DNA of 25,240 bases from assembly GCA_964356405.1 (NCBI GenBank), contig CAYHHJ010000001.1:1-25240 (forward strand), in the 5' to 3' direction. Shown here in pieces: positions 1-23,025 of the stretch. The notes under the pieces were generated by a model. The model had not been told where the DNA came from. It searched no databases and saw only the letters and a program-made list of their open reading frames with translations. Both the position numbers and the translations under genes were made by a program. Each line of letters opens with the position of its first letter. Position 1 is the first letter of the stretch. This stretch comes from an uncultured Candidatus Peribacteria bacterium. GTDB taxonomy: Bacteria; Patescibacteriota; Gracilibacteria; UBA1369; 2-02-FULL-48-14.

Positions 1-268
1 GGTCAAGGCTTTGCTTCACGGCCTCATTTTTGGACGTCTCACCGGCGGGGATTACAAAGATTTCAGCGAGTAAGCCCTCCTCACGCAGGCGGCCTAGCAG
101 GGCCGTTCCGTGGTGAGATTCCACAGTTGAATCGGTTATCAACGCATAGCGATAGGCAGGTGCTTTTTCTTTCAAAAGCTCAGGAAGTTTTGCGAGCAAA
201 CCTTGCCCCACATAGACTTCAGTAATCTGAGATTTTTCAGCGACGGTGTAGCTTAGATTTGGGTTCAT
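1..268 (-). CDS. aroB: 3-dehydroquinate synthase, N-terminal part (runs off the left edge)
   Basis: Not in the ORF track. Manual translation from ATG at 268 gives MNPNLSYTVAEKSQITEVYVGQGLLAKLPELLKEKAPAYRYALITDSTVESHHG...EIFVIPAGETSKNEAVKQSLD, which contains the AroB ITDxTV and IPAGExSK motifs. The start overlaps the aroF stop (ATGA). Confidence 0.93.
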   Translation of the reverse strand, partial: MNPNLSYTVAEKSQITEVYVGQGLLAKLPELLKEKAPAYRYALITDSTVESHHGTALLGRLREEGLLAEIFVIPAGETSKNEAVKQSLD

Positions 269-1308
269 TTGTTGAGGAAGTTTTTCATTTCAAGAAGTAA
301 GGCTTCGGTGTCCTCCCAACTGATGCATGGATCGGTCACGGAAAGGCCCGCGCGATTCACCGATTCCGGCGTGTGATCTTCGAGCTTTTGATTGCCAGAG
401 AGGAGGAAGCTTTCGAGCATGAATCCTTTTACAAATTGATTCAATTCGGGGTACAGCGCAAGGGTGGAAAGCACCTCACGCACCACATGAATTTGTTGAA
501 GCGGATTTTTTACACCATTGAGTTTGCAGTTGTCGTGACTCGCATCGATCACAATGGCTGGGTTTTTGACGCGAGCTTTTTCGAGGCACTCCTTGGCTTT
601 GTACAAATCTTCCAGGTGATAGTTGGGCTCGGTGAGACCACCGCGAAGCACCAAATGTGCGTAGGGATTTCCTTGCGTTTTCACCTGCATTCCATCGAAT
701 ACGGCGGTGTGGCCGTGTTGAGCGGCGAGCACGCTGTTCACCCCTAGTTCGACGTTTCCGCTGGTGGGATTTTTCATTCCCACGGGACACTCCACGGCAG
801 ATGCAAAAATGCGATGTTCCTGATCCTCGGTACTGCGTGCGCCGATGGCAAGCCAAGAAATGAGTTCGATGAATCCTTTGGCGTTGTTAGTGAAGACCGC
901 TTCGTCTGCAATGGGAAGGCCAAGCTCGATCACTTCAACCATGAGGCGGCGGGCATAGTAGACCCCTGCTTCAATGTCCGGTTCCTCGAAAGGATTGGGT
1001 TGATTCACGGGCCCCAACCAGCCTTTTGTGGTGCGTGGTTTTTGGATGTAAAGACGCATCACCAGTTTGAGACTGTCTTTCACTTTTTCATTCAGTTCCA
1101 CGAGGCGTTTTGCATACTCGATTACGGCTTCATGAGGCCAGGCCGAGCAGGGGCCAACCACCACCAATTTGCGAGAATCTTCCCCCGCGAGTATGGCTTG
1201 AATTTCTTTTCGATCTTGAGCGATTCGTTCGAATGCTTTTTCGGAAAGGGGAGTGGCTTGAATGATGTCTTCAGCCCGGGGTAGATTTTTTTGAATGGAA
1301 TAGCGCAT
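265..1308 (-). CDS. aroF: DAHP synthase, type I-alpha (3-deoxy-7-phosphoheptulonate synthase)
   Basis: Motifs GPCS, KPRT, IGARS, GMKNPTSG, LRGG, DASH, MLES and TDPC; the four metal ligands (C, H, E, D) are present. Confidence 0.95.
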   Translation of the reverse strand: MRYSIQKNLPRAEDIIQATPLSEKAFERIAQDRKEIQAILAGEDSRKLVVVGPCSAWPHEAVIEYAKRLVELNEKVKDSLKLVMRLYIQKPRTTKGWLGPVNQPNPFEEPDIEAGVYYARRLMVEVIELGLPIADEAVFTNNAKGFIELISWLAIGARSTEDQEHRIFASAVECPVGMKNPTSGNVELGVNSVLAAQHGHTAVFDGMQVKTQGNPYAHLVLRGGLTEPNYHLEDLYKAKECLEKARVKNPAIVIDASHDNCKLNGVKNPLQQIHVVREVLSTLALYPELNQFVKGFMLESFLLSGNQKLEDHTPESVNRAGLSVTDPCISWEDTEALLLEMKNFLNK

Positions 1309-1317
1309 AGATGAAAG

Positions 1318-2085
1318 TTAAGAGTTGAGAAGGGTTTCCCACAGGCGAATTTGTTCCAAAGCCTGTGCTTTAAACATAGTGAGTCCGGATCGGGTTTCGG
1401 CGCCCGCAGCTTTGGCTTCGCGAAGCAGGCGCGTTTCCTCAGGATTATAAATAATATCAAAGACTACTTGGCCAGGGTGCAGGAAGCTTGCGTCGATAGG
1501 AGTTTGATCTACTTCGGGAGCGAGCCCCAGTGGGGTGGCATTGATTAGTACGTCAAAAGTTTGGGTGGCCAAATCAGCATCCTCAATGGCGGTACCGCCA
1601 AAGTGATTAACCAAATCTTCTGCACGTTCACGATTGCGATTTAAACAGAATAGTTCCCCACCTTCATCGTTCACAAATGCGGCGACAGGTTTTGCAACAC
1701 CTCCAGCGCCCAGGAGTAAAACCCGTTTTCCTTTGAGTGGTAGGCCTTCTAGGGCGACTGAAATGCCAAGGTAGTCGGTGTTATATCCAAGGAGTTTCCC
1801 GTCTTTTTGGAGTACCGTGTTGACACTTTGGAGCCTCTCTGCCAGTGGGTCTATTTCATCCAAAAAAGGAAGGATGCTTTCTTTGAAAGGAAGGGTTACG
1901 GCAGTGAGACCAATCTTTAAAGTGCGCAGAGTTTGGACCAATGCGAACAGGTCTTCGTTTTCGAAAGCGAGTAGCACGGCATCGAGGCTGCGCCGTGCAT
2001 ACTCAGCATTGTGAAAAGAGGGGCTGAGGCTGTGGCTCAAAGGAAATCCAATGACCGCATTGAGTTTGGTTTTACCGGTGATCAT
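1318..2085 (-). CDS. aroE: Shikimate dehydrogenase
   Basis: Motifs IGFPLSHSLSP, VTLPFK, SVNT, NTD, GAGG, NRNRERA, NATPLG and DIIYNP; lies within the aro operon. Confidence 0.95.
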   Translation of the reverse strand: MITGKTKLNAVIGFPLSHSLSPSFHNAEYARRSLDAVLLAFENEDLFALVQTLRTLKIGLTAVTLPFKESILPFLDEIDPLAERLQSVNTVLQKDGKLLGYNTDYLGISVALEGLPLKGKRVLLLGAGGVAKPVAAFVNDEGGELFCLNRNRERAEDLVNHFGGTAIEDADLATQTFDVLINATPLGLAPEVDQTPIDASFLHPGQVVFDIIYNPEETRLLREAKAAGAETRSGLTMFKAQALEQIRLWETLLNS

Positions 2086-2513
2086 AGTTGTGAGACTAAA
2101 AAGGTGAGCGCTTCTTCATAAGACTGAATTTGTTTGCCGTAGAATTGTTTTAAACAGGCAGGTTCCGTGACCGAAATGGCTCGCCAAGGTTCTCTGTTTT
2201 TGACGTCTGAGAGATGCACTTCAACGCAGGGTACGCCGCTGTCTATGAGTGAATCGTGGAGTGCATAGCTGGAGTGAGTGAGAGCGCCGGGATTGATCAA
2301 AATACCCACTGCATTTCCGGATTTTTCTTGGATCCAATCAATGAGGCTACCCTCGTGGTTTGACTGAAAACATTCAAGTTCATAGCCTAGTTCTTCGGCT
2401 CGTTTGTGCAACTGCGCTTCGAGTTCTGGAAGCGTTAAGCTTCCATAGTGAGCAGGGTCGCGCTTCCCTAGCTGGTTTAAGTTTGGCCCGTGAATGAGAA
2501 GTATTTTTGTCAT
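2082..2513 (-). CDS. aroQ: Type II 3-dehydroquinate dehydratase
   Basis: Motifs HGPNLNQLGKRDPAHYG, FQSNHEG, INPGALTH and EVHLS...RE; ATGA overlaps with both neighbours. Confidence 0.96.
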   Translation of the reverse strand: MTKILLIHGPNLNQLGKRDPAHYGSLTLPELEAQLHKRAEELGYELECFQSNHEGSLIDWIQEKSGNAVGILINPGALTHSSYALHDSLIDSGVPCVEVHLSDVKNREPWRAISVTEPACLKQFYGKQIQSYEEALTFLVSQL

Positions 2514-3043
2514 TGGGTGAGGTTCAAGTGAGTAAGGACTTCTTCGGTCAGAGAGTCTATGGAGCCCTCGTTTTTTACTGTGATTTTGGCTAAGCGGTCA
2601 AACACAGGTATCCGTTCCGCCCACAGTTCCTGGAATTGGTCAAAAGCATCTTCTTCTTGTGAGAAAAAGGCTGGCTTTCCGTTGATCATGATGCGTTCAA
2701 AAACGATGCTTCGAGGTGCCGCCACGTGGACAAGTTCATGTCCTTGCAAGAGTATTTGATTCTGCTCCATGAGTGGAGTTCCACCACCCAAGGCTAGGAC
2801 GAGTGGAACTTCACCGGCGAGAATTTCCGTCAACGCTTCGCTTTCCAATCCTCTGAAAAACGCTTCTCCATGCTTGTGAAGAATCTCACGGCAGCTTTCT
2901 TCTTGCCCGCATTGTTTAGAGTGCAGGCGTACGATTTCAGCGTCCAAATCTACGAAGGGTCGCTTGAGTCGAATGGAGAGGTTTTCACCAAGGAGAGATT
3001 TCCCCGCGTGTTTGAACCCGATAAGAACTAGATGAGAAGACAT
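2510..3043 (-). CDS. aroK: Shikimate kinase
   Basis: Walker A GFKHAGKS, plus DLD, GEAFFRGLE and ALGGG motifs; operon context. Confidence 0.92.
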   Translation of the reverse strand: MSSHLVLIGFKHAGKSLLGENLSIRLKRPFVDLDAEIVRLHSKQCGQEESCREILHKHGEAFFRGLESEALTEILAGEVPLVLALGGGTPLMEQNQILLQGHELVHVAAPRSIVFERIMINGKPAFFSQEEDAFDQFQELWAERIPVFDRLAKITVKNEGSIDSLTEEVLTHLNLTQ

Positions 3044-3053
3044 GGGGCGTAAG

Positions 3054-4337
3054 TTAATCGAAGTAAAGTGTCGCGGTGAGTGCTTTTAAATGATCTCCAA
3101 AGAGGGGGTAAGTCTTACGGAGTCCTTCGGCGGTGTCAATAACGGTTTCGCCGTCGGCTAAAAGTCCGGCCAAAGCCAGGGCCATGATGGTACGGTGGTC
3201 GTTAAAGCCCTGTACCTTTGCTCCATGCAAGGGGGAGGGGTGAATGACGAGGCCGTCTGCAAGTTCTTCGATGTGTGCCCCCATGGCCTGTAAGCCCGCC
3301 GTTATCGAGTGGAGCCGATCCGTTTCTTTGAATCGAGCCTGGGGAACGTTTAAAATTCGAGTCACTCCTTCCGCCTGAGTTCCTAGCACGGCAAGGGTGG
3401 GGACTAAGTCTGGGATATCGTTGGCGTCGATGTCGAGCCCTTTTAATGAGGCTTTGTGAACACGAATGTTGTGTGAAGAAATAGATAGTTTTGCGCCCAT
3501 TTTTTCCAAAATGCTCAGAAGGCGTCGGTCTCCTTGCAGATCTTTTGAGTCCAATCCTTCAAGGTTTATTTCGCCGTCGAACAGGGCACCTGCTGCCAAG
3601 AATGTGGAGGCGGAGGAGTAGTCGCCCGGAACATAGTAATCGATGGGTGAATAGACCCGTCCAGCTCTTAAATGAAAGTGATCAACGCTCCCCTCGCGAA
3701 TGTGCTCAAATCGGATGTTTTGTGAGCTCAGCCACTCCAAGGTGAGGTCTAGGTAAGGGCGTTCGTTGAGATTCTCGACGTGAAGTTCTACGTCACTTTC
3801 GGCGTAGAGGCCGGAAAGCAAAAGGGCGGAAATGAATTGAGAAGTGAGACCGTTCACTAGGGTTGAACCACCTTTGAGCGGGCCACGTATCGCGATAGGC
3901 CACGTCGAAGAATCAATGTGACAGCCCAAATCAGAAAGGTTCTTTAGCAAATCTTGAAGGGGGCGCTTTCGCATTTGTTCATCGGCGTTTATTTGCATGA
4001 GCAGCGCGCCTTCGGTCAAAGCCAAAATGGGAAGTACGAAGCGGGTAGTGATGCCGGAGTTGGCCGTCCACACGGTATTTTTTAGCGGTCGCAAAGGAAA
4101 ACCCCGGCTCTCCACACGGATGCAGTTTTCGTGACAAGTGGCCGTTTCAATCTTGGCTCCCAAATCTTTACAAACAGTGAGTGCCGCTGAAACATCTTCA
4201 GATTCAGGAAGAAAATGAAGGGTGGATACGCCCTTTGCCAGGGTAGCCACAAGCAGAGCCCTCACGCTTTGGGATTTTGAGCCCGGAATGCGTAAGGTTC
4301 CGTTGAGTGCGGTGCTGGGAAGAACGTGTAGGTTCAT
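3054..4337 (-). CDS. aroA: EPSP synthase (3-phosphoshikimate 1-carboxyvinyltransferase)
   Basis: Motifs PGSKS, SQFISALL, DxSSA, QGD, DIPD, RFKETDR, DHR and KTYP. I chose the ATG at 4337 over the track's TTG at 4343, which lies in the attenuator U-tract. Confidence 0.96.
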   Translation of the reverse strand: MNLHVLPSTALNGTLRIPGSKSQSVRALLVATLAKGVSTLHFLPESEDVSAALTVCKDLGAKIETATCHENCIRVESRGFPLRPLKNTVWTANSGITTRFVLPILALTEGALLMQINADEQMRKRPLQDLLKNLSDLGCHIDSSTWPIAIRGPLKGGSTLVNGLTSQFISALLLSGLYAESDVELHVENLNERPYLDLTLEWLSSQNIRFEHIREGSVDHFHLRAGRVYSPIDYYVPGDYSSASTFLAAGALFDGEINLEGLDSKDLQGDRRLLSILEKMGAKLSISSHNIRVHKASLKGLDIDANDIPDLVPTLAVLGTQAEGVTRILNVPQARFKETDRLHSITAGLQAMGAHIEELADGLVIHPSPLHGAKVQGFNDHRTIMALALAGLLADGETVIDTAEGLRKTYPLFGDHLKALTATLYFD

Positions 4338-4366
4338 AAACAAAAAGTCCCCGCGAGTGCGAGGCC
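4338..4366 (-). terminator. Attenuator terminator (3:4 hairpin plus U-tract) directly upstream of the aroA start
   Basis: The minus strand reads GGCCTCGC-ACTC-GCGGGGAC-TTTTTGTTT-ATG: a GC-rich stem (one GU pair, one mismatch), a 4-nt loop and a U-rich tail. Confidence 0.8.
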
Positions 4367-4415
4367 AAGAGGGTAAATATTACACACTTCTTAGAGGCCT
4401 CGCTGGTGGGCGAAG
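4359..4415 (-). promoter_or_regulatory. Alternative attenuator helices: 1:2 protector and 2:3 antiterminator
   Basis: Segment 2 GCGAGGCC (4403-4396) is the exact reverse complement of segment 3 GGCCTCGC (4366-4359), which is the terminator 5' arm. Segment 1 CTTCGC (4415-4410) pairs with GCGAGG (4403-4398) across a 6-nt loop. Confidence 0.78.
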
Positions 4416-4450
4416 AATTTAAAGCTGCTAAAGAAGTAAGTGTGTGTCAT
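4391..4450 (-). CDS. Phe-rich attenuator leader peptide MTHTYFFSSFKFFAHQRGL (PheL-like, 19 aa)
   Basis: Manual translation from ATG 4450 to TAA 4391: five Phe and one Tyr in residues 5-13. The 3' end of the ORF overlaps segments 1 and 2 of the attenuator. Confidence 0.85.
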   Translation of the reverse strand: MTHTYFFSSFKFFAHQRGL

Positions 4451-4462
4451 GTAAGTGAAGAA

Positions 4463-4492
4463 AGCCTACTCCCATCTTGAAAAGGCTGTCAA
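4463..4492 (-). promoter_or_regulatory. Sigma70-type promoter for the leader and aro operon
   Basis: TTGACA (4492-4487), an 18-nt spacer, then TAGGCT (4468-4463), ending 12 nt before the leader ATG. Confidence 0.6.
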
Positions 4493-4542
4493 CGCTTTAC
4501 AGTAGGGCGATTTTTGATTAAAAGGGAACCGTACAGTTTAAA

Positions 4543-5799
4543 ATGTCTTTTATGCAAAACATTGAAATCATGGCTCCGGTGGGGTCTTTTGAAGCCCTTG
4601 CGGCGGCAATTCATGCTGGATGCGACAGCATTTACTTTGGGATGGAGCAGCTTAATATGCGAGCCAGAGCTTCCCATAATTTTACTCTGGAGGAGCTGAA
4701 AGAAGTGACTCAAACGTGTAGGGAGCACGGGGTTCGCTCGTACCTCACGATGAATACGTTGCTGTACCAGCACGATCTGATTTTGATGCGCAAAATTCTG
4801 GATGCGGCTAAGGAGGCGGAAGTGTCTGCGGTCATCATCCAAGACATTGCGGCCATTCAGTATGCTAAGTCGATTGGACTGTCCATTCATGCGTCTACAC
4901 AGCTTTCCATTTCTAACTACGAAGCCGTGAAGTTTTATGCACAGTTTGCAGATACCATTGTGCTTGCCCGCGAAGTGGACATGGACATGATGCGTGAGAT
5001 TTGTGCGAACATAGAAAAAGATCAACTCAAGGGTCCGGCCGGCGAGCTCATTCGCATCGAAGTGTTTGTGCATGGGGCGCTTTGCATAGCGCAAAGTGGA
5101 CGTTGCCAAATGAGCCTTATCACCAACAATACTTCAGCACAGCGTGGAGCCTGCCTTCAAGAATGCCGTAAAAAATATCGAGTGATTGATGAGGAAACCG
5201 GGACTGAGATGGTGATCGACAACGAGTATGTGCTCAGTCCCACGGATTTATGCTGTTTGCCTTTTTTGGATAAGCTTGCCGCTACGGGTGTTTCCGTTTT
5301 TAAGATTGAAGGCCGTGGGAAAAGTGCTGACTATGTGAGCAAGGTGGTTCAGGTTTATCGTGAGGCACGTGACGCCATTTTGGAAGGGAGCTTTGGCCAA
5401 GAGAAGGTGGAGAAGTGGATGGAAACTTTGAAAAGTGTGTATAATCGCGGGTTTTCGGAAGGCTACTATTTGGGCCGCAAGCTCCCGGAGTGGAGCGGAT
5501 TTCCCAGGAACAAATCAACGGATGAAAAGATCTATGTTGGCGACGTTAGTCACTATTTTCCTAAGGTTAAAGTTGCGGAAATTAATACTTTGGCGCACGA
5601 AATAAAGAAGGGTGATCGTTTTGTGATCATGGGAAAAACAACCGGTGCCGTGTTTGGAGAAGTTCAGTGTTTGGTGAAGGATGACGTTGAAGTGGAGGAG
5701 TCTGGCAAAAAATGTCTGGTGACCCTACCTTTGGATGAAACAGTTCGTAAAAATGACAAGGTTTATCTCCTCAAATCTCGTGCCATCAATGTCCTTTAA
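4543..5799 (+). CDS. Peptidase U32 family Fe-S hydroxylase (TrhP/PrtC-like), with C-terminal U32_C domain
   Basis: N-terminal APVGSFEAL...AGCDSIYFG; E173-x3-H177, then C181-x6-C188-x15-C204-x3-C208; also HASTQ, VLARE, KIEGR and YNRGF motifs. Confidence 0.93.
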   Translation: MSFMQNIEIMAPVGSFEALAAAIHAGCDSIYFGMEQLNMRARASHNFTLEELKEVTQTCREHGVRSYLTMNTLLYQHDLILMRKILDAAKEAEVSAVIIQDIAAIQYAKSIGLSIHASTQLSISNYEAVKFYAQFADTIVLAREVDMDMMREICANIEKDQLKGPAGELIRIEVFVHGALCIAQSGRCQMSLITNNTSAQRGACLQECRKKYRVIDEETGTEMVIDNEYVLSPTDLCCLPFLDKLAATGVSVFKIEGRGKSADYVSKVVQVYREARDAILEGSFGQEKVEKWMETLKSVYNRGFSEGYYLGRKLPEWSGFPRNKSTDEKIYVGDVSHYFPKVKVAEINTLAHEIKKGDRFVIMGKTTGAVFGEVQCLVKDDVEVEESGKKCLVTLPLDETVRKNDKVYLLKSRAINVL

Positions 5800-6022
5800 G
5801 ATCGTTCATTTTCGTAAAGACTGTATTGGCTGCAACTCCTGCGTGAACATTGCTCCTCAGTCTTGGACGATGGATGAAAAAGAAGGGAAAGCCTCGCTCG
5901 TGGGAGGAAAACAAAAACGAGACGTGTTTGTTGGGGAAGCTTTTGACTGTGACTTAGAGGACAATAGGCGTGCCGCTGAGGCTTGCCCAATGCGGATCAT
6001 TCAGATCAATTCTAAACCATGA
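5789..6022 (+). CDS. Single-cluster [4Fe-4S]-type ferredoxin (77 aa)
   Basis: C12-x2-C15-x2-C18 plus a distal C66-P. The start is placed at ATG 5789, overlapping the U32 stop by 11 nt; the track start at 5735 lies deep in the U32 gene. Confidence 0.9.
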   Translation: MSFKIVHFRKDCIGCNSCVNIAPQSWTMDEKEGKASLVGGKQKRDVFVGEAFDCDLEDNRRAAEACPMRIIQINSKP

Positions 6023-6915
6023 AGAAGCACAAACAGGAAAAACTAGGTGAGTGGTTTGGATTCGGCACGGTTCTTATGTATGCCTTTTGGCCGATTGGCG
6101 CAAATTTTTTCGCCAAGCAAATGCCGCCCATGCAATTTTTGGCGTACATCACTCTACTGGGCGCGGTGCCGATGCTGATTTCCACTTTGTATCTTGGACA
6201 ATTCAAGCAGCTTTTTCATGCGAAGACGCTTGCCACTTTACTGCTCTACACCATTTTGCTGGCGGTGATTCCGTACATGATTATTACCTACGCCACGCAA
6301 TTCACCAGCGCTATAGACACCGGATTTTTAACCCAGACAGAGGGAATTTATGGAGCTGTTTTGGGCTGGCTGATTTTTAAAGAAAGTATTGGTAGAAATA
6401 AAGTTCTTGGGTTTGGATTCATTTTTCTGGCGAATTTTCTGCTCATTTATAATGGAGGGGTGGAGTTCAGTTGGGCAAATGTGGCGATTGCTATTGCTCC
6501 GGTGAGCTTTGTGCTGGGGAATATTTTGGCAAAGAACTTGCAGAAGGAAAACCTAGGTTGGGCGCCGCTTTTGCTGTTTAGAAATGGGGTAGGAGGGCTG
6601 ATTATTCTGTTCATGGCCGTGCTGATGGAGGACGTGGCCGTTCCTCCTTCGCATTTGATTTGGCCGATTCTTTTACTGGGGCTAATCGTGTTTGGTATTG
6701 AGAAGATTTTTTGGCAGCTTGCCTTGCACCGGCTCGATCTTTCTAAGGCGACGGCCATTGTGATTACCTCACCGGTTTTCACCTTTGTGCTGGCCTATTT
6801 TTTCCTGAGTGAAGTGCCGGACGTGTATCAGTGGATGGCCTTTGTTTTCACGCTGATTGGAATTGGATTTATTTTGAAAACCCACTCCAAACAATGGATA
6901 CAAGTGGAGCAGTAG
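6019..6915 (+). CDS. DMT/EamA family transporter (about 10 TM helices)
   Basis: Two EamA-like halves (LGWLIFKE... and LAYFFLSEVP...Q, with DLSKATAI...SPVFT); ATGA overlap with the ferredoxin. Confidence 0.88.
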   Translation: MKKHKQEKLGEWFGFGTVLMYAFWPIGANFFAKQMPPMQFLAYITLLGAVPMLISTLYLGQFKQLFHAKTLATLLLYTILLAVIPYMIITYATQFTSAIDTGFLTQTEGIYGAVLGWLIFKESIGRNKVLGFGFIFLANFLLIYNGGVEFSWANVAIAIAPVSFVLGNILAKNLQKENLGWAPLLLFRNGVGGLIILFMAVLMEDVAVPPSHLIWPILLLGLIVFGIEKIFWQLALHRLDLSKATAIVITSPVFTFVLAYFFLSEVPDVYQWMAFVFTLIGIGFILKTHSKQWIQVEQ

Positions 6916-9613: not shown

Positions 9614-10657
9614 ATGAGTCGTTCGAAAGACCTTTTGACAGAGCCGGTACAGTCTGCAAAAAAGGCAGGACTTTTGTATGTGCATGACAGCGCGCCGGGC
9701 ATTGAGCGGACAAAAGCAGGGAAGGGTTTTACGTATGAACTGCCGAGCGGAGCGCGAGTGAAAGACGCCACAGTTTTGGAGCGGATTCGAGGGTTGGGAA
9801 TACCTCCCGCCTGGAAACAGGTGTGGATTTGTACGCACGAAAATGGACATTTGCAGGCTACGGGGCGCGATGCACGCGGACGACTACAGTATTTGTACCA
9901 TCCGCTGTGGCGAGTGGTTCGCAGCCAAAATAAGTTTCATCGCATGCTCACTTTTGCAGAGGTGCTGCCTAAAATTCGGCGAAAAACTATGCGTGGTTTG
10001 GAACAAAAAGGACTGACGCGAGCGCGTGTGCTAGCGGCCATTGTGCGCATCATGGAAAAGACTTTGATCCGTATTGGGAATGAGGAATACGTTAAAGACA
10101 ACGATTCTTTTGGACTCACCACCATGCGTAACAAGCATGTGAAGGTGGAGGGAGGGGTGGCGCTGTTTCACTTTAGGGGCAAGAGCGGCGTGGTGCATGA
10201 TGTGGAATTGGACAGTCCTAAATTGGCCAAGATTATTCACCAGTGTCAGGATTTGCCCGGGGAGGAGCTCTTTGGATTTTTGGACGAAGCGGGCCGAGCG
10301 CACGACCTTGGTTCCCACGATGTGAATTTGTATTTGCAGGAACTGAGTGGCGAGGAGATCACGGCCAGGTATTTTAGCACGTGGTTTGGAAGCGTGCATG
10401 CGATGCAGGAAATTGAGGCTCTTGGGTCGTGTGAGATGGTAGCCCACCGAAAGAAAAATATTGTGGCGGTGGTGGATTCTGTTTCTAAGCAACTCGGCAA
10501 CACCAAAGCGGTGTGCAAAAAATCCTATATCCACCCCGGCATTTTTGAATGGTACTTGGCGGAAAAGCCGTTTAAATTTTCGTGCACATGTCCTGAGAAT
10601 TCGGTACTGCGGGAGGCGGAGCATGAACTGGTCCATTTCCTAAAAGCCAATGCCTAG
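9614..10657 (+). CDS. DNA topoisomerase IB (bacterial/poxvirus type); one catalytic Arg is substituted
   Basis: GRDARGRLQYLY, RIGNEEY (R153), GLTT, FRGKSG (K190) and LGNT..VCKKSYIHP (N296, Y305). The AKDFRTW motif reads ARYFSTW. Confidence 0.93.
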   Translation: MSRSKDLLTEPVQSAKKAGLLYVHDSAPGIERTKAGKGFTYELPSGARVKDATVLERIRGLGIPPAWKQVWICTHENGHLQATGRDARGRLQYLYHPLWRVVRSQNKFHRMLTFAEVLPKIRRKTMRGLEQKGLTRARVLAAIVRIMEKTLIRIGNEEYVKDNDSFGLTTMRNKHVKVEGGVALFHFRGKSGVVHDVELDSPKLAKIIHQCQDLPGEELFGFLDEAGRAHDLGSHDVNLYLQELSGEEITARYFSTWFGSVHAMQEIEALGSCEMVAHRKKNIVAVVDSVSKQLGNTKAVCKKSYIHPGIFEWYLAEKPFKFSCTCPENSVLREAEHELVHFLKANA

Positions 10658-10750
10658 AAACTTTGCATAAATATTTGCGAGTGGGGCGGCTTTTGCTTGT
10701 GCTTTTGGAGAAATAAGGTTATTTTGGCGGTAATTTTTTCTGCAAAAAAT

Positions 10751-13132
10751 ATGAAAATTGCACTCATATGTGGAGGGCCATCCATGGAACGAGGGATCTC
10801 GCTCAACTCGGCGCGCAGCGTGCTCAACCACTTGGAAGGGGACGGAATTGAAATCGTGCCGGTCTATTTTGATTACAAAAAACGGCCGTACCATTTGGAA
10901 ACCTCACAGCTCTATTCCAATACGCCATCGGACTTTGATTTTAAACTTCGCGAGACGGCCAAGTTTTTGAGCCAGACCGCGCTGAAGAACTTACTTAAAA
11001 GTTGTGACATCGCTTTCCCCGTGATGCACGGACAGTTTGGGGAAGATGGCGGCATCCAAAGGCTGCTCGAACGATTCAAAGTGCCCTACGTGGGCGCGGA
11101 CATTGAGGCCTGCAAGCGTTGGGACAAACATGTGGCCAACGAGTTTATTCGGGCCAACGGATTTTATGCGCCGCCTTGTGCGCTCCTCAAAATCAACCAA
11201 GATGACCATAAGAAAATCATCGACGCGTTTTTTAAGGAACATGGAATTAAGCGAGCCGTGGTGAAGCCGGCGAGCGGGGGGTCCAGTATTGGAGTGTACT
11301 CCGTGGAAACGCCCGCAGAAGCATTGGAAAAAGTGAAACTGCTCTTTAGCCGACGCATGGATACGCGCGTGGTGATTGAGCCCTTTTGTACGGGCACTGA
11401 ATTCACGGTGATCATTTTGCAGAACCGCTTCAATATGCCGGTCGCTATTTTGCCCACGGAGATAGAAACGGATTACCAGAAAAACCAAATCTTTGATTTT
11501 CGCAAAAAGTATTTGCCCACACGGCAGGTGCGTTACCACTGCCCACCGCGATTTAGTAATGAAGACATCGAGCGCATTCAAGTGCAGGCCGAGCAGCTTT
11601 TTAAAATCATGGGCATGCGCGACTTTGCGCGTTTTGACGGGTGGCTGATGCCGGACGGAAAAATTTGGTTTTCGGATTTCAACCCTATTAGCGGAATGGA
11701 ACAGAATAGCTTTTTGTTTCAACAAACGGCGCGCATTGGATTCAGTCACCGGGATCTTTTGTACTACGTGGTGAAGCACGCAGCCGATCGCTACGGAATT
11801 GTGATGCCGGCCAAACGTGAGCCGAGCGTGGCGAAGCGAAAACCCGTGAGCGTTTTATTTGGAGGTGCTACGTCCGAGCGGCAGGTGTCTGTGATGAGTG
11901 GAACCAATGCCTGGCTTAAATTGAGGCGCAGTGAAAAATATGATCCACGGCCTTACTTTTTGGATTTGAATGGCGAGGTGTGGGAGGTGCCGTATGCGCT
12001 CACACTCAATCACACGGCTGAGGAAATTTTGGAGAATTGTGAGGGCGCTGAAGAGGGCGAAAAACGGTTGCGATTTTTGGAAGAAAAAGTGAGGTTAAGG
12101 TTGGCTTTGGAAAATGGCGACACCAGTGAACCCTTTTTCATTCCACACAAAATGAGTCTGCAGGAATTTATAAAGCAGAGTCGATTTGTGCTGCTGGGAC
12201 TCCATGGTGGGATTGGGGAGGATGGAACGCTTCAGCGTATGCTCACGAAGGCGGGCGTGAAGTTCAATGGGCCGAGCGCGGAAACGTCTGCAGTTTGTAT
12301 GGATAAGGCAGAGACTGGTAAGCGCCTTGCTGGCCTGGAGAAATTTGGGATTTTTGTGGCACCCAAGCAGACGGCACGTGCAGTGGATTTTAAGGGTTTT
12401 AAAGTCAAGGGCTACGAGAGTTATTTTGCTGAATTGCAAAAGAAGCTTATGGCAAAAACGGTCATTGTGAAGCCACAAGATGAGGGCTGTTCGTCCGGGA
12501 TTGTGCGAATTTTTAACGCCAAGGATTTGCAAAACTATATGCAGCTCGTGCTTGCCAATGCTACGCAGATTCCACCGGGAACCTTTAAAAATCAGACCAC
12601 TCCGATTGAAATGCCCCTCGAAACCATGAATCGACTTTTGTTTGAGCAATTTATTGAAGTCGATACCGTGCGAGTGAAGGGGAACCGATTGAAGTGGCGT
12701 CGCAAAAAAGGCTGGGTGGAGGTGACGGTGGGTGTGATTCAGGATGGAAACAAGATCCACCACGAGGGCGCTTTGCACGCACTCAGCCCCAGCTTGACCG
12801 TTGCGGAAGGCGAGGTGCTTTCGGTGGAAGAAAAATTTCAAGGAGGCACGGGTGTGAATATGACTCCGCCGCCGGAGAGCCATGTGAAACCAGCCGTGCT
12901 CGCGCGCGTCAAAAAATCCATTGAAAAAGTGAGTGAGGTATTGGGCATTGAAGGCTACAGCCGTCTGGATGCGTTCATTCAAATAGACACGGGAGACATT
13001 ATTTTGATTGAAGTGAATACGCTGCCCGCGCTCACGCCGTCCACCGTTTTGTTTCACCAGGGTCTCGCGGAGAAGAAGCCGGTGTATCCGCTGGAACTTT
13101 TGGAGAAAATCGTGGAGAATAAGGGGTACTAG
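10751..13132 (+). CDS. ddl: Tandem two-module D-alanine--D-alanine ligase family protein
   Basis: Two complete Ddl/ATP-grasp modules: GGPSMERGIS / HGQFGEDG / VKP..GGSSIGV / ARFDG / DFN and GGATSERQVS / HGGIGEDG / VKP..EGCS.G / SRLDA / EVN. The start is placed at ATG 10751. Confidence 0.9.
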   Translation: MKIALICGGPSMERGISLNSARSVLNHLEGDGIEIVPVYFDYKKRPYHLETSQLYSNTPSDFDFKLRETAKFLSQTALKNLLKSCDIAFPVMHGQFGEDGGIQRLLERFKVPYVGADIEACKRWDKHVANEFIRANGFYAPPCALLKINQDDHKKIIDAFFKEHGIKRAVVKPASGGSSIGVYSVETPAEALEKVKLLFSRRMDTRVVIEPFCTGTEFTVIILQNRFNMPVAILPTEIETDYQKNQIFDFRKKYLPTRQVRYHCPPRFSNEDIERIQVQAEQLFKIMGMRDFARFDGWLMPDGKIWFSDFNPISGMEQNSFLFQQTARIGFSHRDLLYYVVKHAADRYGIVMPAKREPSVAKRKPVSVLFGGATSERQVSVMSGTNAWLKLRRSEKYDPRPYFLDLNGEVWEVPYALTLNHTAEEILENCEGAEEGEKRLRFLEEKVRLRLALENGDTSEPFFIPHKMSLQEFIKQSRFVLLGLHGGIGEDGTLQRMLTKAGVKFNGPSAETSAVCMDKAETGKRLAGLEKFGIFVAPKQTARAVDFKGFKVKGYESYFAELQKKLMAKTVIVKPQDEGCSSGIVRIFNAKDLQNYMQLVLANATQIPPGTFKNQTTPIEMPLETMNRLLFEQFIEVDTVRVKGNRLKWRRKKGWVEVTVGVIQDGNKIHHEGALHALSPSLTVAEGEVLSVEEKFQGGTGVNMTPPPESHVKPAVLARVKKSIEKVSEVLGIEGYSRLDAFIQIDTGDIILIEVNTLPALTPSTVLFHQGLAEKKPVYPLELLEKIVENKGY

Positions 13133-17061: not shown

Positions 17062-17296
17062 ACTCTATACCTACGAGTACTGTCCTTACTGCGAAAAAGT
17101 GCGCCGAGCCTTTGCGGACATGGGGACTGATTATGAGGAAATCGATGCCGAGCGCGGGACGCCGGGTTCGCTGAAGCTGGTGGAATTGGGCGGTAAACAG
17201 CAAGTCCCCTTCCTAGTGGACGAAGAGCAGGGTATTTTTATGTACGAATCTGACGATATAATCTCCTATGTACGAGCGCGTTCTCAAAAGGATTGA
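17054..17296 (+). CDS. Glutaredoxin-like / GST N-terminal domain protein (CPYC)
   Basis: Motifs LY...YCPYC, QVPFLVD and MYESDDII. Confidence 0.88.
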   Translation: MLKLYTYEYCPYCEKVRRAFADMGTDYEEIDAERGTPGSLKLVELGGKQQVPFLVDEEQGIFMYESDDIISYVRARSQKD

Positions 17297-17828
17297 GGAA
17301 GAAAATTCCGAACAAGACGTGTGGATAGTGGGGCCTGCCACGGGTCACATGCTGCATTGGCTGGTGCGCGTGCTGGCGCCGGACGTGGCACTCGAAATCG
17401 GTACCAGCGTGGGTTACAGCGCCGTGTGGATGGCCTCTGCAATGGATAAAAACCAGCGTGGGCAACTATGGACCATAGAATCACACGACGAACGTTACGC
17501 CCGCGCACAAAAGAACATTGAAGAAGCTGGGCTCACGCACCGCATTTTTCAGCTTAAAGGCCACGCGCCGGAAATTTTCACTCAAAATCCAGCGCTTCCC
17601 GAGCAGATCGACTTTGCTTTTTTTGACGCCACCAAACAAGAACATCAATCCTACTTCGACGCGATTTTCCCGCGTATGAAAAGTGGGGGCATGATTGTGG
17701 TGGACAATGTGCTTTCCCACCGCTTTGGAAAGATGGAAAAGTTCATCGAAGGTGTGCACGCAAACACCGGCCTCAAGGTAGTAGAAATATCCGTGGGGGA
17801 CGGGCTGCTTATTGCTCGAGTCGTTTAG
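17268..17828 (+). CDS. Class I SAM-dependent O-methyltransferase (Methyltransf_3; TrmR/YrrM-like)
   Basis: Motifs LEIGTSVGYSAVWMA, TIE, FFDA.K, IVVDNVL and VGDGL. Confidence 0.9.
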   Translation: MYERVLKRIEEENSEQDVWIVGPATGHMLHWLVRVLAPDVALEIGTSVGYSAVWMASAMDKNQRGQLWTIESHDERYARAQKNIEEAGLTHRIFQLKGHAPEIFTQNPALPEQIDFAFFDATKQEHQSYFDAIFPRMKSGGMIVVDNVLSHRFGKMEKFIEGVHANTGLKVVEISVGDGLLIARVV

Positions 17829-20604: not shown

Positions 20605-23025
20605 TTAACGCCCGCGTATTGTACCACCGAACTTTTCTATGGCAAGGAAGGTGGCCTCTTGCAAAGTTTGGAGTTCTTGTTCTAGCAAGGTCCTTTCAGG
20701 GTGACGAATTTCGATGGAGAAGGACAGGGACTTTTTATCCTCGGGGATATTTTTGCCTTCGTAGATGTCGAAGAGTGTCACACTTTCGATGATACGTTCG
20801 GCGTCGGCAGAGCGGATGATTTTTTCGAGGTCAGCTACTTTGGTTTTTTTGTTCACCAGCACGGAGACGTCGAAGCTCATGGAGGGGAACTTGGCTAGTG
20901 CTTTGAATCTCTTTTCGGCGCGGCCATTTTGCACGAGTGGGCTGAAGCGAAGTTCAAAAGCGGCGACATTTTTGCGAATGTCATAGCCCTTGAGGGTTCC
21001 GGGGTGAAGCGTGAAAAGTTGGCCAATGGTTTTTCCGCGCACCACGATGTCCACGCATTTTTTAGGATGCGCGCAAGGGGCGGGGTATTTGGACTCGATG
21101 AGTTGATACGCACTTACGCCGAAGTTGTTGAGGTAATCCTCTAGCGCACCTTTGGCTGCATAAAAAGGTTCGCTATCCATGGCCACCATCGCGGCGAGGT
21201 GTTTTTCTTCACGAGGCATGTAGTCCTCGGTTTTGTCGTAGGTGTGGCCGAGTTCAAAGATTTGGATTTTTTCAAAAGTTCGTTCGTTGGCGGCGATGTT
21301 TGCCAGCATGTTCGGCACGAGCGTGCGGCGCATGTGAGTCTGGTCTTCGGAAAGGTAGTTGAGAATTTTAATGTGACCTTCTTCGCTGAGGCCGCATTTT
21401 TCAAAACGATCTTTACTATAGAAAGAGTAGTTCACCACTTCGGTGAAACCGAGGCCGAGTGCAAAGATAGTGCGTGTGAGGTGTTTGAAACTGCGTTCCT
21501 CGTTTTCAATGGGCAGTTTGATGGGCAGGGCAGGCAGCACGGGATCGATTTGATCGTAGCCGTGGATGCGCGCCACCTCTTCTACAATGTCTTCTTCAAT
21601 GTTCACATCGCGGGTGGCGCGGTGCGAAGGCACGATGATTTTTAGACTCTTTCCCACGATTTTTACGTCGAATTCCAGGGCTTTTAAAATGCTCACCATT
21701 TCTTTAGTCGCAATCTTTTTTCCAATTTTGCTGCAAATGGATTCCGGGCTCGCGGTGATCTCGATTTCCTTAGCTTTCCAGGTGCCGACGGTGGTGATGG
21801 GGCTGACCACTTTAGCAGTGGGGCAGAGTTCCTGGAGCAGGTTGATGGCTCGTTTGATGGCGGTTTCGGTCATGGATGGATCGAGGCTTTTTTCAAAACG
21901 CTGTGACGCATCGGTGCGCAGAGCGTGACGAACACTGCTTTTGCGAACCACAACGGGATCGAAGGTGGCGGACTCCAAAATGATTTCCGTGGTGTCGTTG
22001 CTGATTCCGGATTTGAGACCCCCTTTAATGCCGGCGAGGCCGAGCGGTTCACCCGCGAGGCTGCAGACCAGCGGATCTTCTTCGTGCAGTTTTTGTTCGG
22101 TTTCATCCAGAGTCACGAGCTTTTCACCCTTCTTTGCGGCGCGCACTACGAAGCCGTCTTTGCCCACCACCGCGCGGTCGTACGCATGCATGGGTTGGCC
22201 GAGTTCGAGCATCACGTAATTGGTCACGTCCACCACATTGTTGTGTGGATTCATGCCGGCGGCGAGCAGTCGGGCTTTGAGCCACTGAGGCGATTCTTCA
22301 ATTTTAATTCCCGTCATAATGGCTGCGGAAAAGCGTGGACACATTTTGTTATCCTCAATTTTGATGGTGAGTTTTTCTTTGCCACTCGCAGGTTTCATCT
22401 TGAGCAGTGGCTCGAGTTTCTTTAGCGGTTTTCCGAAAATTGCAGACATCTCACGGGCGAAACCATAATGGCTCCAGAGATCGGGGCGGTGAGTGAGGGA
22501 TTTATTGTCTATTTCCAAAAGGGTGTCATTGAGGCCCAGGGCTTCTGCAAGAGGCGTGCCTGGTTTTGCCTTGAGTGCGGACAAATCTAAAATCGCGTGG
22601 TCGTCGCTGCTTTGTGTTTTTTGCATTTCAGTCATCCCAATTTCTTCACCCGCGCAGATCATTCCATAACTTTCTTCCCCGCGAATTTTTGCGAGTTCCA
22701 AGGTAACGGTTTCACCACCGTGCCATTGAACCACGGCGCCTGGAGTGGCCACGGCTACGCTCATTCCTACCGCCAAGTTGCTTCCACCGCAGACCAGTTT
22801 GTGAATTTTGCTGCCGAGGTCAACGTTCACCAGTCGAAGTTTATCTGCATTGGGATGAGCGGTGATGCTCAGAATTTTCCCCACGAACATATTTTCGAAT
22901 TTCTTGGCTTCATCAATCACACCTTCCACTTCGGCTGTGTGCACAGTCACTTTCCAGCCAATTTCTGCGCCAGAAAGTTTAGGCAAGTCTACAAAGTCCC
23001 GAATCCAGTTGAGTGAAATGTTCAT
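20605..23025 (-). CDS. pheT: Phenylalanine--tRNA ligase beta subunit
   Basis: N-terminal SLNWI, OB domain HPNADKL, DNKSLTHRPDL (B domain), B3/4, B5 EEDIVEEVARIHGY, and C-terminal FDX-ACB (FDIYEG...KKSL). Confidence 0.97.
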   Translation of the reverse strand: MNISLNWIRDFVDLPKLSGAEIGWKVTVHTAEVEGVIDEAKKFENMFVGKILSITAHPNADKLRLVNVDLGSKIHKLVCGGSNLAVGMSVAVATPGAVVQWHGGETVTLELAKIRGEESYGMICAGEEIGMTEMQKTQSSDDHAILDLSALKAKPGTPLAEALGLNDTLLEIDNKSLTHRPDLWSHYGFAREMSAIFGKPLKKLEPLLKMKPASGKEKLTIKIEDNKMCPRFSAAIMTGIKIEESPQWLKARLLAAGMNPHNNVVDVTNYVMLELGQPMHAYDRAVVGKDGFVVRAAKKGEKLVTLDETEQKLHEEDPLVCSLAGEPLGLAGIKGGLKSGISNDTTEIILESATFDPVVVRKSSVRHALRTDASQRFEKSLDPSMTETAIKRAINLLQELCPTAKVVSPITTVGTWKAKEIEITASPESICSKIGKKIATKEMVSILKALEFDVKIVGKSLKIIVPSHRATRDVNIEEDIVEEVARIHGYDQIDPVLPALPIKLPIENEERSFKHLTRTIFALGLGFTEVVNYSFYSKDRFEKCGLSEEGHIKILNYLSEDQTHMRRTLVPNMLANIAANERTFEKIQIFELGHTYDKTEDYMPREEKHLAAMVAMDSEPFYAAKGALEDYLNNFGVSAYQLIESKYPAPCAHPKKCVDIVVRGKTIGQLFTLHPGTLKGYDIRKNVAAFELRFSPLVQNGRAEKRFKALAKFPSMSFDVSVLVNKKTKVADLEKIIRSADAERIIESVTLFDIYEGKNIPEDKKSLSFSIEIRHPERTLLEQELQTLQEATFLAIEKFGGTIRGR
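20618..20626 (-). promoter_or_regulatory. Putative extended -10 (TGGTACAAT) inside the 3' end of pheT, for the PBP gene
   Basis: Matches TGnTAnnnT and lies 28 nt before ATG 20589. It shares GTACAATACGC with the promoter at 16454-16464. Confidence 0.45.

What the first reader, a model, noticed from the sequence alone, without database searches (positions are those of the whole stretch)
1..6022. Shikimate operon head-to-head with a U32 hydroxylase and ferredoxin: possible self-contained prephenate-dependent hydroxylation locus
Seen: aroA-K-Q-E-F-B and a U32-ferredoxin operon share one 205-bp divergent region. The U32 protein has an intact E-x3-H-x3-C-x6-C-x15-C-x3-C motif, and the ferredoxin start overlaps its stop. 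Established: U32 proteins (E. coli TrhP/YegQ for tRNA ho5U34, RlhA for 23S ho5C2501, UbiU/UbiV for quinone) are O2-independent Fe-S hydroxylases that depend on prephenate, and the ferredoxin YfhL has been linked to these reactions. Inference: substrate-supply genes and the consuming enzyme are co-located and may be co-regulated. In a reduced genome, the shikimate pathway may be kept partly to supply RNA modification.
Basis: partly seen in the sequence, partly recalled or inferred. Interest (0 to 1): 0.78.

Follow-up and report, generated by a model that had tools for sequence, protein, structure and literature searches.

The report
U32 hydroxylase-ferredoxin pair beside prephenate genes
A tiny-genome (Peribacteria, CPR) bacterium carries an iron-sulfur "U32" enzyme gene, coupled to its own small ferredoxin, head-to-head with a complete phenylalanine/prephenate operon; relatives keep the same pair next to, or fused with, chorismate mutase, which ties an uncharacterised branch of these oxygen-free hydroxylases to prephenate and to an electron carrier.

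Summary
aroA-K-Q-E-F-B on the minus strand is divergent from U32 and an overlapping ferredoxin. The Fe-S motif is intact.

The aro operon continues on two other contigs of this genome into prephenate dehydratase and a chorismate mutase-aminotransferase fusion, with aroC convergent. It is a full phenylalanine pathway. A conserved Phe-rich leader-peptide attenuator controls it. U32 has its own promoter, so simple co-regulation is not supported.

The U32 has TrhP's full-length architecture but falls in a separate clade with CPR and Bacteroidota proteins that databases call collagenase-like.

Exact adjacency to aroA is limited to this genus. The theme is wider:
- Of 49 genomes of the order with this U32 type, 12 place it within 10 kb of chorismate mutase.
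- Eight have chorismate mutase directly beside U32-ferredoxin, and two of those carry a ferredoxin-chorismate mutase fusion.
- Four of these genomes lack aroA and aroC.
- In 45 further genomes a TrhP-type U32 lies beside aroA.
- No genome has both U32 types.

Best reading: a prephenate-dependent hydroxylase with a dedicated ferredoxin. The substrate is probably an RNA pyrimidine (tRNA U34), which is not shown.

This scan noted the same module earlier on other DNA. I rate it a new variant of a known kind.

The parts
2..268 (-). aroB (3-dehydroquinate synthase), N-terminal 89 aa; runs off the contig. Its C-terminal part is on contig C203 of the same genome.
   Evidence: TIGR01357 2.3e-05 on the fragment. 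C203:3-554 matches DHQS_C at 1.5e-31. The order is colinear in G005.
265..1308 (-). AroF/G/H-type DAHP synthase
   Evidence: PF00793 5e-50. NF009395 362 bits, over its cut-off.
1318..2085 (-). aroE, shikimate dehydrogenase
   Evidence: TIGR00507 211 bits, over its cut-off.
2082..2513 (-). aroQ, type II 3-dehydroquinate dehydratase
   Evidence: PF01220 2.5e-50.
2510..3043 (-). aroK, shikimate kinase
   Evidence: PF01202 5.9e-27.
3054..4337 (-). aroA, EPSP synthase; first gene of the operon
   Evidence: TIGR01356 371 bits, over its cut-off.
4338..4366 (-). Terminator of the aro leader. On the RNA it reads CCUCGC-ACUC-GCGGGG followed by a U-run that ends at the aroA ATG. Region 3 (GGCCUCGC, 4366-4359) is shared with the antiterminator.
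   Evidence: Terminator-like site. 95.5% of cells paired in 11 leaders, against 39-52% for slid controls.
4391..4450 (-). Leader peptide ORF MTHTYFFSSFKFFAHQRGL* (5 Phe, 1 Tyr). Region 1 (CUUCGC, 4415-4410) and region 2 (GCGAGGCC, 4403-4396) lie inside it.
   Evidence: Translation. Conserved peptides in G005, G003, G018, G019 and six other leaders. Antiterminator helix 93% paired, against 23-45% for slid controls.
4463..4492 (-). Putative aro promoter: -35 TTGACA (4492-4487) and -10 TAGGCT (4468-4463)
   Evidence: Read from the sequence. The same elements stand in G003 and G005. Inferred, not tested.
4496..4524 (+). Putative U32 promoter: -35 TTTACA (4496-4501), 17 nt, -10 TAAAAG (4519-4524). 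Its -35 box is 3 bp from the aro -35 box.
   Evidence: Conserved between G000 and G005. Inferred, not tested.
4552..5799 (+). U32-family Fe-S protein, 415 aa (alternative start at 4543). Catalytic domain plus a C-terminal barrel, as in TrhP.
   Evidence: PF01136 3e-68. Cys motif. hhalign to E. coli TrhP over 4-405 against 1-435. Separate clade in the tree.
5789..6022 (+). Single-cluster [4Fe-4S]-type ferredoxin, 77 aa. Its start overlaps the U32 stop by 11 nt.
   Evidence: Fer4_15 and Fer4_13. C12, C15, C18 and C66-P67 are invariant in 20 orthologues. It follows U32 in CPR, Bacteroidota and Verrucomicrobiales loci.
6019..6915 (+). EamA/DMT-family transporter. Its start overlaps the ferredoxin stop (ATGA). 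It is the last gene of the 12-gene block that G002 lacks.
   Evidence: PF00892 1e-29. Block boundary. Not found next to the pair in the relatives fetched.

Best explanation
The window holds the right-hand part of a 12-gene block with two back-to-back transcription units.

Unit 1 (minus strand) is a complete chorismate-to-prephenate-to-phenylalanine operon: aroA-K-Q-E-F-B, then prephenate dehydratase and a chorismate mutase-aminotransferase fusion on the neighbouring contigs, with aroC convergent. A ribosome-stalling leader peptide rich in Phe codons switches it on when charged tRNA-Phe is scarce.

Unit 2 (plus strand) is U32-ferredoxin-EamA, with overlapping start and stop codons. The U32 protein is a [4Fe-4S] enzyme with the architecture of TrhP, but from a distinct clade.

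Proposed mechanism (inferred):
- It hydroxylates C5 of an RNA pyrimidine without O2. tRNA U34 is the most likely target.
- Prephenate from the neighbouring pathway is the oxygen donor.
- The two electrons taken from the substrate pass through the U32 cluster to the co-translated ferredoxin.

Shown: the gene content, the motifs, the conserved U32-ferredoxin pair and its recurrent linkage or fusion to chorismate mutase.
Inferred: prephenate use, the direction of electron flow and the substrate.
For: Anatomy.

Pathway. aroC and PDT plus CM-aminotransferase are present. The contiguous order is seen in G005. No chorismate-binding enzyme and no prephenate dehydrogenase were found in G000.

U32-ferredoxin pair. 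It is conserved across three phyla.

Link to chorismate mutase (positions, collated by hand):
- 12 of 49 genomes with this U32 type have CM within 10 kb.
- U32-Fdx-CM operons with overlapping codons occur in G009, G010, G011 and G023.
- A ferredoxin-CM fusion occurs in G124 and G125.
- CM is divergent from the pair in G004 and convergent in G163.
- G004, G010, G011 and G163 lack aroA and aroC.
- In G009, G023, G124 and G125 the only detected CM sits with U32-Fdx, not with the aro genes.

Other links to aro genes:
- A U32 of this clade is embedded in an aro operon in an unrelated MAG, L009.
- A TrhP-type U32 lies within 10 kb of aroA in 45 other genomes of the order, and is the last gene of the aro operon in G185.

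Substrate hints:
- The two U32 types never co-occur in the 129 U32-bearing genomes.
- The protein aligns over its full length with TrhP.
- TrhO is found in 62% of genomes without U32, 31% of those with this type and 10% of those with the TrhP type.

Published background: prephenate dependence of RlhA, TrhP and UbiU/V, and a proposed Fe-S electron relay to an unidentified acceptor (PMC5727448, PMC6599085, PMC10990095).
Against: - There is no biochemical evidence for any member of this clade.
- NCBIfam scores are far below the TrhP and UbiU cut-offs, and the clade is separate in the tree.
- 9 of the 49 genomes with this U32 type show no aroA, aroC or CM_2. They include the one-contig genomes G097 and G187. 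Endogenous prephenate is therefore not always available.
- Adjacency to aroA itself is limited to genus g1, plus G022 in a different arrangement.
- Related genomes are not independent, so the counts overstate the support.
- No CmoA, and no CmoB above its cut-off, was found. The O-methyltransferase in the window does not co-vary with U32. No downstream xo5U enzyme therefore supports the tRNA reading.
- TrhO co-occurs with this U32 type in 15 genomes.
- In G023 the module is coupled to a VKOR-family gene, which hints at a non-RNA substrate.
Confidence: 0.6

Rival explanations
1. Same chemistry, different RNA target. The pair makes 5-hydroxycytidine in 23S rRNA (as RlhA does) or modifies another RNA position, not tRNA U34.
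For: The catalytic domain is as similar to RlhA (31% identity) as to TrhP (28%). In G011 the U32-Fdx-CM operon runs straight into a PUA/SAM rRNA-methyltransferase-like gene. TrhO, a second route to ho5U34, co-occurs with this U32 type in 15 of 49 genomes.
Against: The DUF3656 domain that marks RlhA is absent. The C-terminal barrel aligns with TrhP. This U32 type and the TrhP type never co-occur.
Confidence: 0.15
2. The pair hydroxylates a small aromatic molecule, as UbiU/UbiV do with quinone precursors. The EamA transporter moves the substrate or the product.
For: EamA is translationally coupled to the ferredoxin here. A VKOR-family (quinone-dependent) gene is coupled to U32-Fdx-CM in G023. 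UbiU scores nearly as high as TrhP in NCBIfam.
Against: EamA and VKOR are each seen in a single lineage. UbiU and UbiV are short two-subunit proteins without the C-terminal barrel. The UbiU and UbiV cut-offs are not met. Only one U32 gene is present.
Confidence: 0.15
3. The adjacency has no functional meaning. U32-Fdx sits next to the aro genes by inheritance and genome compaction, and the protein may be a protease, as the old 'collagenase' name says.
For: Adjacency to aroA is limited to one genus. The divergent units have separate promoters, and only the aro unit is attenuated. 9 genomes with the pair have no prephenate source.
Against: CM is attached in at least four different arrangements across three families, including a ferredoxin-CM fusion, and is retained in genomes that lack aroA and aroC. 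There is an independent in-operon case in L009. The Fe-S motif and the residues essential in TrhP and RlhA are invariant (PMC6599085).
Confidence: 0.07

Closest known systems
TrhP (YegQ) of E. coli, prephenate-dependent tRNA U34 C5-hydroxylation factor (Sakai et al. 2019, PMC6599085). It is said to need the ferredoxin YfhL (Lauhon 2019, J Bacteriol 201:e00433-19; paper not held, cited from my own knowledge).
   Same: U32 catalytic domain plus C-terminal barrel, alignable end to end. The E/H/4-Cys motif is present, including the residues essential in TrhP. It is linked to prephenate supply. TrhP-type genes in sister families sit at the aro operon, and the two types replace each other among genomes.
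   Different: 28% identity. It scores 180 bits against a cut-off of 534 and falls in a separate clade. It lacks TrhP's insertion of about 45 residues after the Cys motif. Its ferredoxin is encoded in the same operon and is a single-cluster type. The substrate is unproven.
RlhA (YdcP), 23S rRNA C2501 hydroxylation (Kimura et al. 2017, PMC5727448)
   Same: U32 catalytic domain, 31% identity over residues 5-310. The family shares prephenate and Fe-S dependence.
   Different: No DUF3656 domain and a different C-terminal half.
UbiU-UbiV, O2-independent ubiquinone hydroxylases that use prephenate as oxygen donor (PMC6747719, PMC10990095)
   Same: The same family and a Cys-motif type that binds [4Fe-4S]. 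The published mechanism calls for an unidentified electron acceptor, a role the ferredoxin here could fill.
   Different: UbiU/UbiV is a heterodimer of two short U32 proteins with UbiT and acts on a lipid substrate. Here there is a single 415-aa protein and the cut-offs are not met.
PrtC-type 'collagenase' U32 proteins of Bacteroidota (PepU32#4 in Kimura et al. 2017), function unknown
   Same: The nearest relatives outside CPR are Bacteroidota proteins of 406-418 aa at 45-51% identity. Close relatives are named collagenase or collagenase-like by their sources.
   Different: Assignment to PepU32#4 is inferred, because no PrtC reference sequence was available. Bacteroidales copies have no adjacent ferredoxin.
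pheA and pheST leader-peptide attenuators of Proteobacteria (own knowledge)
   Same: A short ORF with clustered Phe codons, with alternative 1:2, 2:3 and 3:4 helices and an intrinsic terminator in front of the first biosynthetic gene.
   Different: Found in a CPR lineage, and it controls the whole aro-to-Phe operon. The same leader also precedes unrelated small ORFs in relatives that lack aroA and aroC.

Membership tests
Peptidase U32 family (PF01136) | Match to the family profile above the curated cut-off | tested here: met
   230 bits against a cut-off of 22.4.
Fe-S U32 hydroxylases (Pelosi et al. 2019, PMC6747719) | Conserved CX6CX15CX3/4C four-cysteine motif, with the upstream E and H | tested here: met
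   E170, H174, C178, C185, C201, C205. All are invariant in 20 orthologues.
TrhP (NCBIfam NF011996 equivalog) | Score above the curated equivalog cut-off | tested here: not met
   180.2 bits against 534.
TrhP | U32 domain plus C-terminal U32_C barrel | tested here: met
   hhalign covers 4-405 of the profile against 1-435 of E. coli TrhP. A few close relatives carry a precomputed PF16325 hit. Pfam gave no PF16325 hit for the window protein at E<=0.001.
TrhP | Groups with E. coli TrhP in a tree | tested here: not met
   The window protein lies in a separate clade (SH-aLRT 96). The aro-linked paralogues of sister families group with TrhP (SH-aLRT 99).
TrhP / RlhA / UbiUV | Activity depends on prephenate | not testable with these tools
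   Genomic linkage only: CM adjacency and fusion.
RlhA | DUF3656 (PF12392) after the U32 domain | tested here: not met
   No such hit. The alignment with RlhA stops at residue 310.
UbiU / UbiV | Score above the NF047963 or NF047965 cut-off | tested here: not met
   157.7 against 440 and 49.8 against 275. Only one U32 gene in the genome.
PepU32#4 (PrtC type) | Clusters with P. gingivalis PrtC | not tested
   No PrtC sequence could be fetched. The assignment is inferred from source names and from Bacteroidota relatives.
YfhL-type ferredoxin | Two CxxCxxCxxxCP motifs (2 x [4Fe-4S]) | tested here: not met
   Only C12, C15, C18 and C66-P67 are conserved; it matches Pfam single-cluster families.
Leader-peptide transcription attenuator | Short ORF rich in the regulatory codon, mutually exclusive antiterminator and terminator helices, and a U-run before the first gene | tested here: met
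   The helices are conserved, but only one pair shows a change on both sides.

The most novel reading that the evidence does not exclude
The PrtC-like U32 clade, its ferredoxin and chorismate mutase form a self-sufficient three-part O2-independent hydroxylase. The ferredoxin is the missing electron acceptor of U32 chemistry. In CPR genomes that have lost the shikimate pathway, chorismate mutase is kept only to turn scavenged chorismate into the oxygen donor for this enzyme.
Probability: 0.35. Interest if true: 0.75.

Novelty: new variant of a known kind. Interest (0 to 1): 0.6.

Why it matters
No direct hydroxylase activity had been demonstrated for RlhA or TrhP as of 2024, and the electron acceptor of the proposed prephenate-dependent mechanism is unidentified (PMC10990095). 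Most of the twelve U32 subfamilies have no assigned function.

A subfamily that carries its own ferredoxin, and in several lineages its own chorismate mutase (sometimes fused to the ferredoxin), offers a compact two- or three-gene system. It could be used to reconstitute the chemistry, identify the redox partner and assign a function to proteins long named collagenases.

It also shows that prephenate supply is selected for reasons other than amino-acid synthesis in some minimal genomes. Searches of the held literature found no paper that describes U32-aro or U32-chorismate mutase gene linkage.

Tried and rejected
- **Complex prediction.** U32 + ferredoxin + two 4Fe-4S clusters scored 0.01: 'no answer', neither for nor against binding.
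- **TrmR idea.** The Methyltransf_3 O-methyltransferase at 17268-17828 resembles YrrM/TrmR among other PDB hits. It is present in genomes without U32 (G002, G007, G016-G021) and absent from families f14 and f16, which have this U32 type. I rejected it as a partner.
- **CmoA/CmoB.** None above the cut-off in five genomes.
- **Rfam.** No family matched in the window.
- **Neighbours of the Bacteroidota homologues.** GH32, Dxs, YceD and others; uninformative.
- **Small ORFs divergent from U32 in L004, L007, L008 and L078.** They are not homologous to the G004 chorismate mutase protein.
- **Search for fused forms above 733 aa.** It found only RlhA-type proteins. Fusions of about 500 aa would not be listed.
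- **The hairpin at 4493-4509.** I first read it as a U32 leader terminator. It overlaps the -35 boxes and is poorly conserved in G005, so I dropped that reading.
- **'No aroA' calls from TIGR01356 at 1e-40 are not fully reliable.** G022 has a 36%-identical aroA found by tblastn. I therefore also used aroC.
- **Lauhon 2019 (YfhL)** could not be read.
- **PDB by sequence.** No hit for the U32.
- **tRNA set of G000.** It includes Leu-UAG, Pro-UGG, Ser-UGA and Thr-UGU, but also GNN and CNN isoacceptors, so it is not decisive.

Full report
**What is there.** The window is one whole contig (C1) of a 1.14-Mb MAG in 227 contigs, 80.6% complete. Its nearest named relatives are Candidatus Peribacteria/Peregrinibacteria, also filed as Gracilibacteria, of the CPR.

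On the minus strand lie aroA (3054-4337), aroK, aroQ, aroE, an AroF/G/H-type DAHP synthase and the first 89 residues of aroB, which run off the contig. On the plus strand, after a gap of 205 bp, lie a U32-family gene, a 77-aa ferredoxin and an EamA transporter. The gap is 214 bp if U32 starts at ATG 4552, as its 415-aa relatives suggest. The ferredoxin ATG overlaps the U32 stop by 11 nt. The EamA ATG overlaps the ferredoxin stop.

The E-x3-H-x3-C-x6-C-x15-C-x3-C motif is intact (E170...C205) and invariant in 20 orthologues. The ferredoxin has one CxxCxxC...CP set, also invariant.

**The aro operon is a phenylalanine operon.**
- Contig C203 of the same genome carries the aroB C-terminus, a prephenate dehydratase and a chorismate mutase fused to the N-terminus of a class I/II aminotransferase.
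- Contig C120 carries the aminotransferase C-terminus, convergent with aroC.
- In the congeneric genome G005 the whole order is contiguous: aroC-> <-AT/CM<-PDT<-aroB<-aroF<-aroE<-aroQ<-aroK<-aroA | U32->Fdx. G003 agrees. The three G000 contigs are therefore neighbours.
- G000 has no chorismate-binding enzyme (Trp, folate or menaquinone branches) and no prephenate dehydrogenase (the genome is incomplete). Chorismate appears to flow only through prephenate to Phe.

**Regulation.** The 100 nt next to aroA are about 92% identical between G000 and G005, while the AroA proteins are 74% identical. On the aroA strand this stretch encodes the following:
- a TTGACA/TAGGCT promoter;
- a 19-codon leader, MTHTYFFSSFKFFAHQRGL;
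- a 1:2 helix (CUUCGC/GCGAGG);
- an 8-bp antiterminator (GCGAGGCC/GGCCUCGC);
- a terminator (CCUCGC-ACUC-GCGGGG plus a U-run) that ends at the aroA ATG.

The peptide and the helices recur upstream of aroA in G005, G003, G018 and G019. G003 carries a compensatory GCGAGGCU/AGCCUCGC change. In 11 leaders, 93% (antiterminator) and 95.5% (terminator) of cells pair, against 23-52% for slid controls. Only one pair has changes on both sides, so the support comes from conservation rather than covariation.

U32 has its own putative promoter (TTTACA-17-TAAAAG, conserved in G005). Its -35 box is 3 bp from the aro -35 box, and U32 lies outside the attenuator. The two units are therefore not co-regulated through Phe. 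Any coupling through the abutting promoters is speculation.

**Which U32 is it?**
- NCBIfam gives TrhP 180 bits (cut-off 534) and UbiU 158 bits (cut-off 440), so no equivalog fits.
- I built a tree with E. coli TrhP, RlhA, UbiU and UbiV. The window protein and its CPR orthologues form a clade (SH-aLRT 96) with proteins from Bacteroidota, Verrucomicrobiales and two MAGs labelled Methanosarcinales. This clade lies outside all four reference groups.
- A profile of this clade aligns with TrhP over its whole length, including the C-terminal barrel (28% identity). It aligns with RlhA over the catalytic domain only.
- Relatives are named collagenase-like by their sources. Together with the 45-51% identity to Bacteroidota proteins, this suggests the PrtC-type subfamily PepU32#4 of Kimura et al. 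(PMC5727448). I could not test that assignment.
- G000 has only this one U32 gene.

**How far the linkage goes.** I searched all 205 genomes of the order for the U32 protein, aroA, aroC, CM_2 and TrhO. I collated the positions by hand.

| Genomes of the order | Number | With aroC | Without aroC | With TrhO |
|---|---|---|---|---|
| Window-type U32 (at least 54% identity) | 49 | 34 | 15 | 15 |
| Paralogous U32 (27-39% identity) | 80 | 75 | 5 | 8 |
| No U32 | 76 | 43 | 33 | 47 |

- No genome has both U32 types.
- All twelve sampled paralogues group with E. coli TrhP (SH-aLRT 99).
- A TrhP-type gene lies within 10 kb of aroA on the same contig in 45 of the 80 genomes that have one. Usually it is convergent with aroB-aroA-aroK. 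In G185 it is the last gene of an aroA...AT operon.
- For the window type, adjacency to aroA is limited to genus g1 (G000, G005, and G003 with three genes inserted). In G022 the pair abuts the CM end of the aro operon.

The window type is linked to chorismate mutase much more widely. Twelve of the 49 genomes have CM within 10 kb, and in eight it is directly beside the pair:

| Genomes | Arrangement |
|---|---|
| G009, G010, G011, G023 | U32-Fdx-CM operon with overlapping codons |
| G124, G125 | 177-aa ferredoxin-CM fusion (Fer4_15 at 5-72, CM_2 at 95-174) |
| G004 | Divergent 180-aa CM protein |
| G163 | Convergent CM |

- G004, G010, G011 and G163 have neither aroA nor aroC.
- In G009, G023, G124 and G125 the aro genes are on other contigs, and the only detected CM sits with U32-Fdx.
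- Outside the order, a U32 of this clade lies between aroC and the aminotransferase/tyrA/pheA genes of an aro operon in L009.
- Against a strict dependence: nine genomes with the pair have no aroA, aroC or CM_2. They include the one-contig genomes G097 and G187.

**The block as a unit.** G002 is a one-contig congener whose flanks are 86-88% identical to G000 at the DNA level. It lacks exactly the stretch from the aroC start to the EamA stop, which is 12 genes. The block is lost or gained as one piece. That fits a functional unit, but contiguity alone would give the same result.

**Substrate.**
- The full-length TrhP architecture and the strict alternation with TrhP-type genes within families f12 and f17 favour tRNA U34.
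- So does the graded depletion of the O2-dependent hydroxylase TrhO: it is found in 62% of genomes without U32, 31% with the window type and 10% with the TrhP type.
- None of this is proof.
- I found no CmoA or CmoB.
- The Methyltransf_3 gene in the window does not track U32.
- One operon continues into an rRNA-methyltransferase-like gene (G011) and another into a VKOR gene (G023).

**Comparison with what is known.** U32 proteins RlhA, TrhP and UbiU/V act in O2-independent, prephenate-dependent hydroxylations. For ubiquinone, prephenate is the oxygen donor. The proposed mechanism needs an electron acceptor that has not been identified (PMC5727448, PMC6599085, PMC6747719, PMC10990095).

What is new here is a separate clade whose ferredoxin is co-translated with it, and whose link to chorismate mutase is written into gene order and a gene fusion. 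The held literature shows no report of this.

This scan has noted the same module on other genomes (e1-3113324, e1-2709439, e1-785332, e1-2951838) and the attenuator on this window (e1-5371179). I found the attenuator independently, and I checked the claims of CM attachment and fusion myself.

**Verdict.** The locus is a Phe-attenuated aro-to-Phe operon back to back with a U32-ferredoxin(-EamA) operon. The enzyme is most likely a prephenate-dependent hydroxylase with a dedicated ferredoxin (confidence 0.6). RNA U34 is the leading but unproven substrate (about 0.4). I rate it a new variant of a known kind, interest 0.6.

Noticed in passing
L092 (G002), L095 (G004), L096 (G007), L093 (G016), L098 (G027), L091 (G006); homologous to window 4338-4470: The same Phe-rich leader peptide plus terminator also occurs in relatives where aroA and aroC were not found, and at a second locus in G006 (which has both). 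There it stands upstream of small ORFs with no Pfam match. In G002 and G006 these ORFs lie upstream of rplJ (L10). What a Phe-sensing attenuator controls there is unknown.
   Followed up: partly
L106:2686-3126 (G023) and L099:3723-4940 (G011): The U32-Fdx-CM operon continues with overlapping codons into a VKOR-family gene in G023. In G011 it continues into a PUA/SAM RlmI-like RNA methyltransferase. These are conflicting hints about the substrate.
   Followed up: partly
L073:8591-9133 (G004): The 180-aa chorismate mutase protein divergent from U32-Fdx has a CM_2 match only in its C-terminal half. Its N-terminal half resembles the first CM helix, so it may be a single-chain tandem form. The genome lacks aroA and aroC.
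   Followed up: partly
window 10697-13132 (+): An 811-aa protein with two complete D-Ala-D-Ala ligase modules in tandem (Dala_Dala_lig_N and _C, each matched twice).
   Followed up: no
window 9614-10657 (+): A bacterial type IB topoisomerase (Topoisom_I plus Top1B_N_bact) in a CPR genome. It is conserved in G002.
   Followed up: no
window 17268-17828 (+): A Methyltransf_3 O-methyltransferase related to YrrM/TrmR among others. It is present in 136 of 205 genomes of the order, but its presence does not track U32.
   Followed up: yes
L009:3451-16909: A MAG labelled Methanosarcinales (label unverified) has an aro supercluster: DAHPS-aroB-aroA-aroK/D/E fusion-aroC-U32-AT-tyrA-pheA-aroFGH-DUF554-Trp/TyrRS. 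An aromatic-rich leader ORF (MSNALKQSWSFSLAFAFFYYFFE) stands upstream of it.
   Followed up: partly
window 20605-24335 (-): pheT and pheS lie on the same contig, 16 kb from the Phe-attenuated operon. I did not look for a leader there.
   Followed up: no
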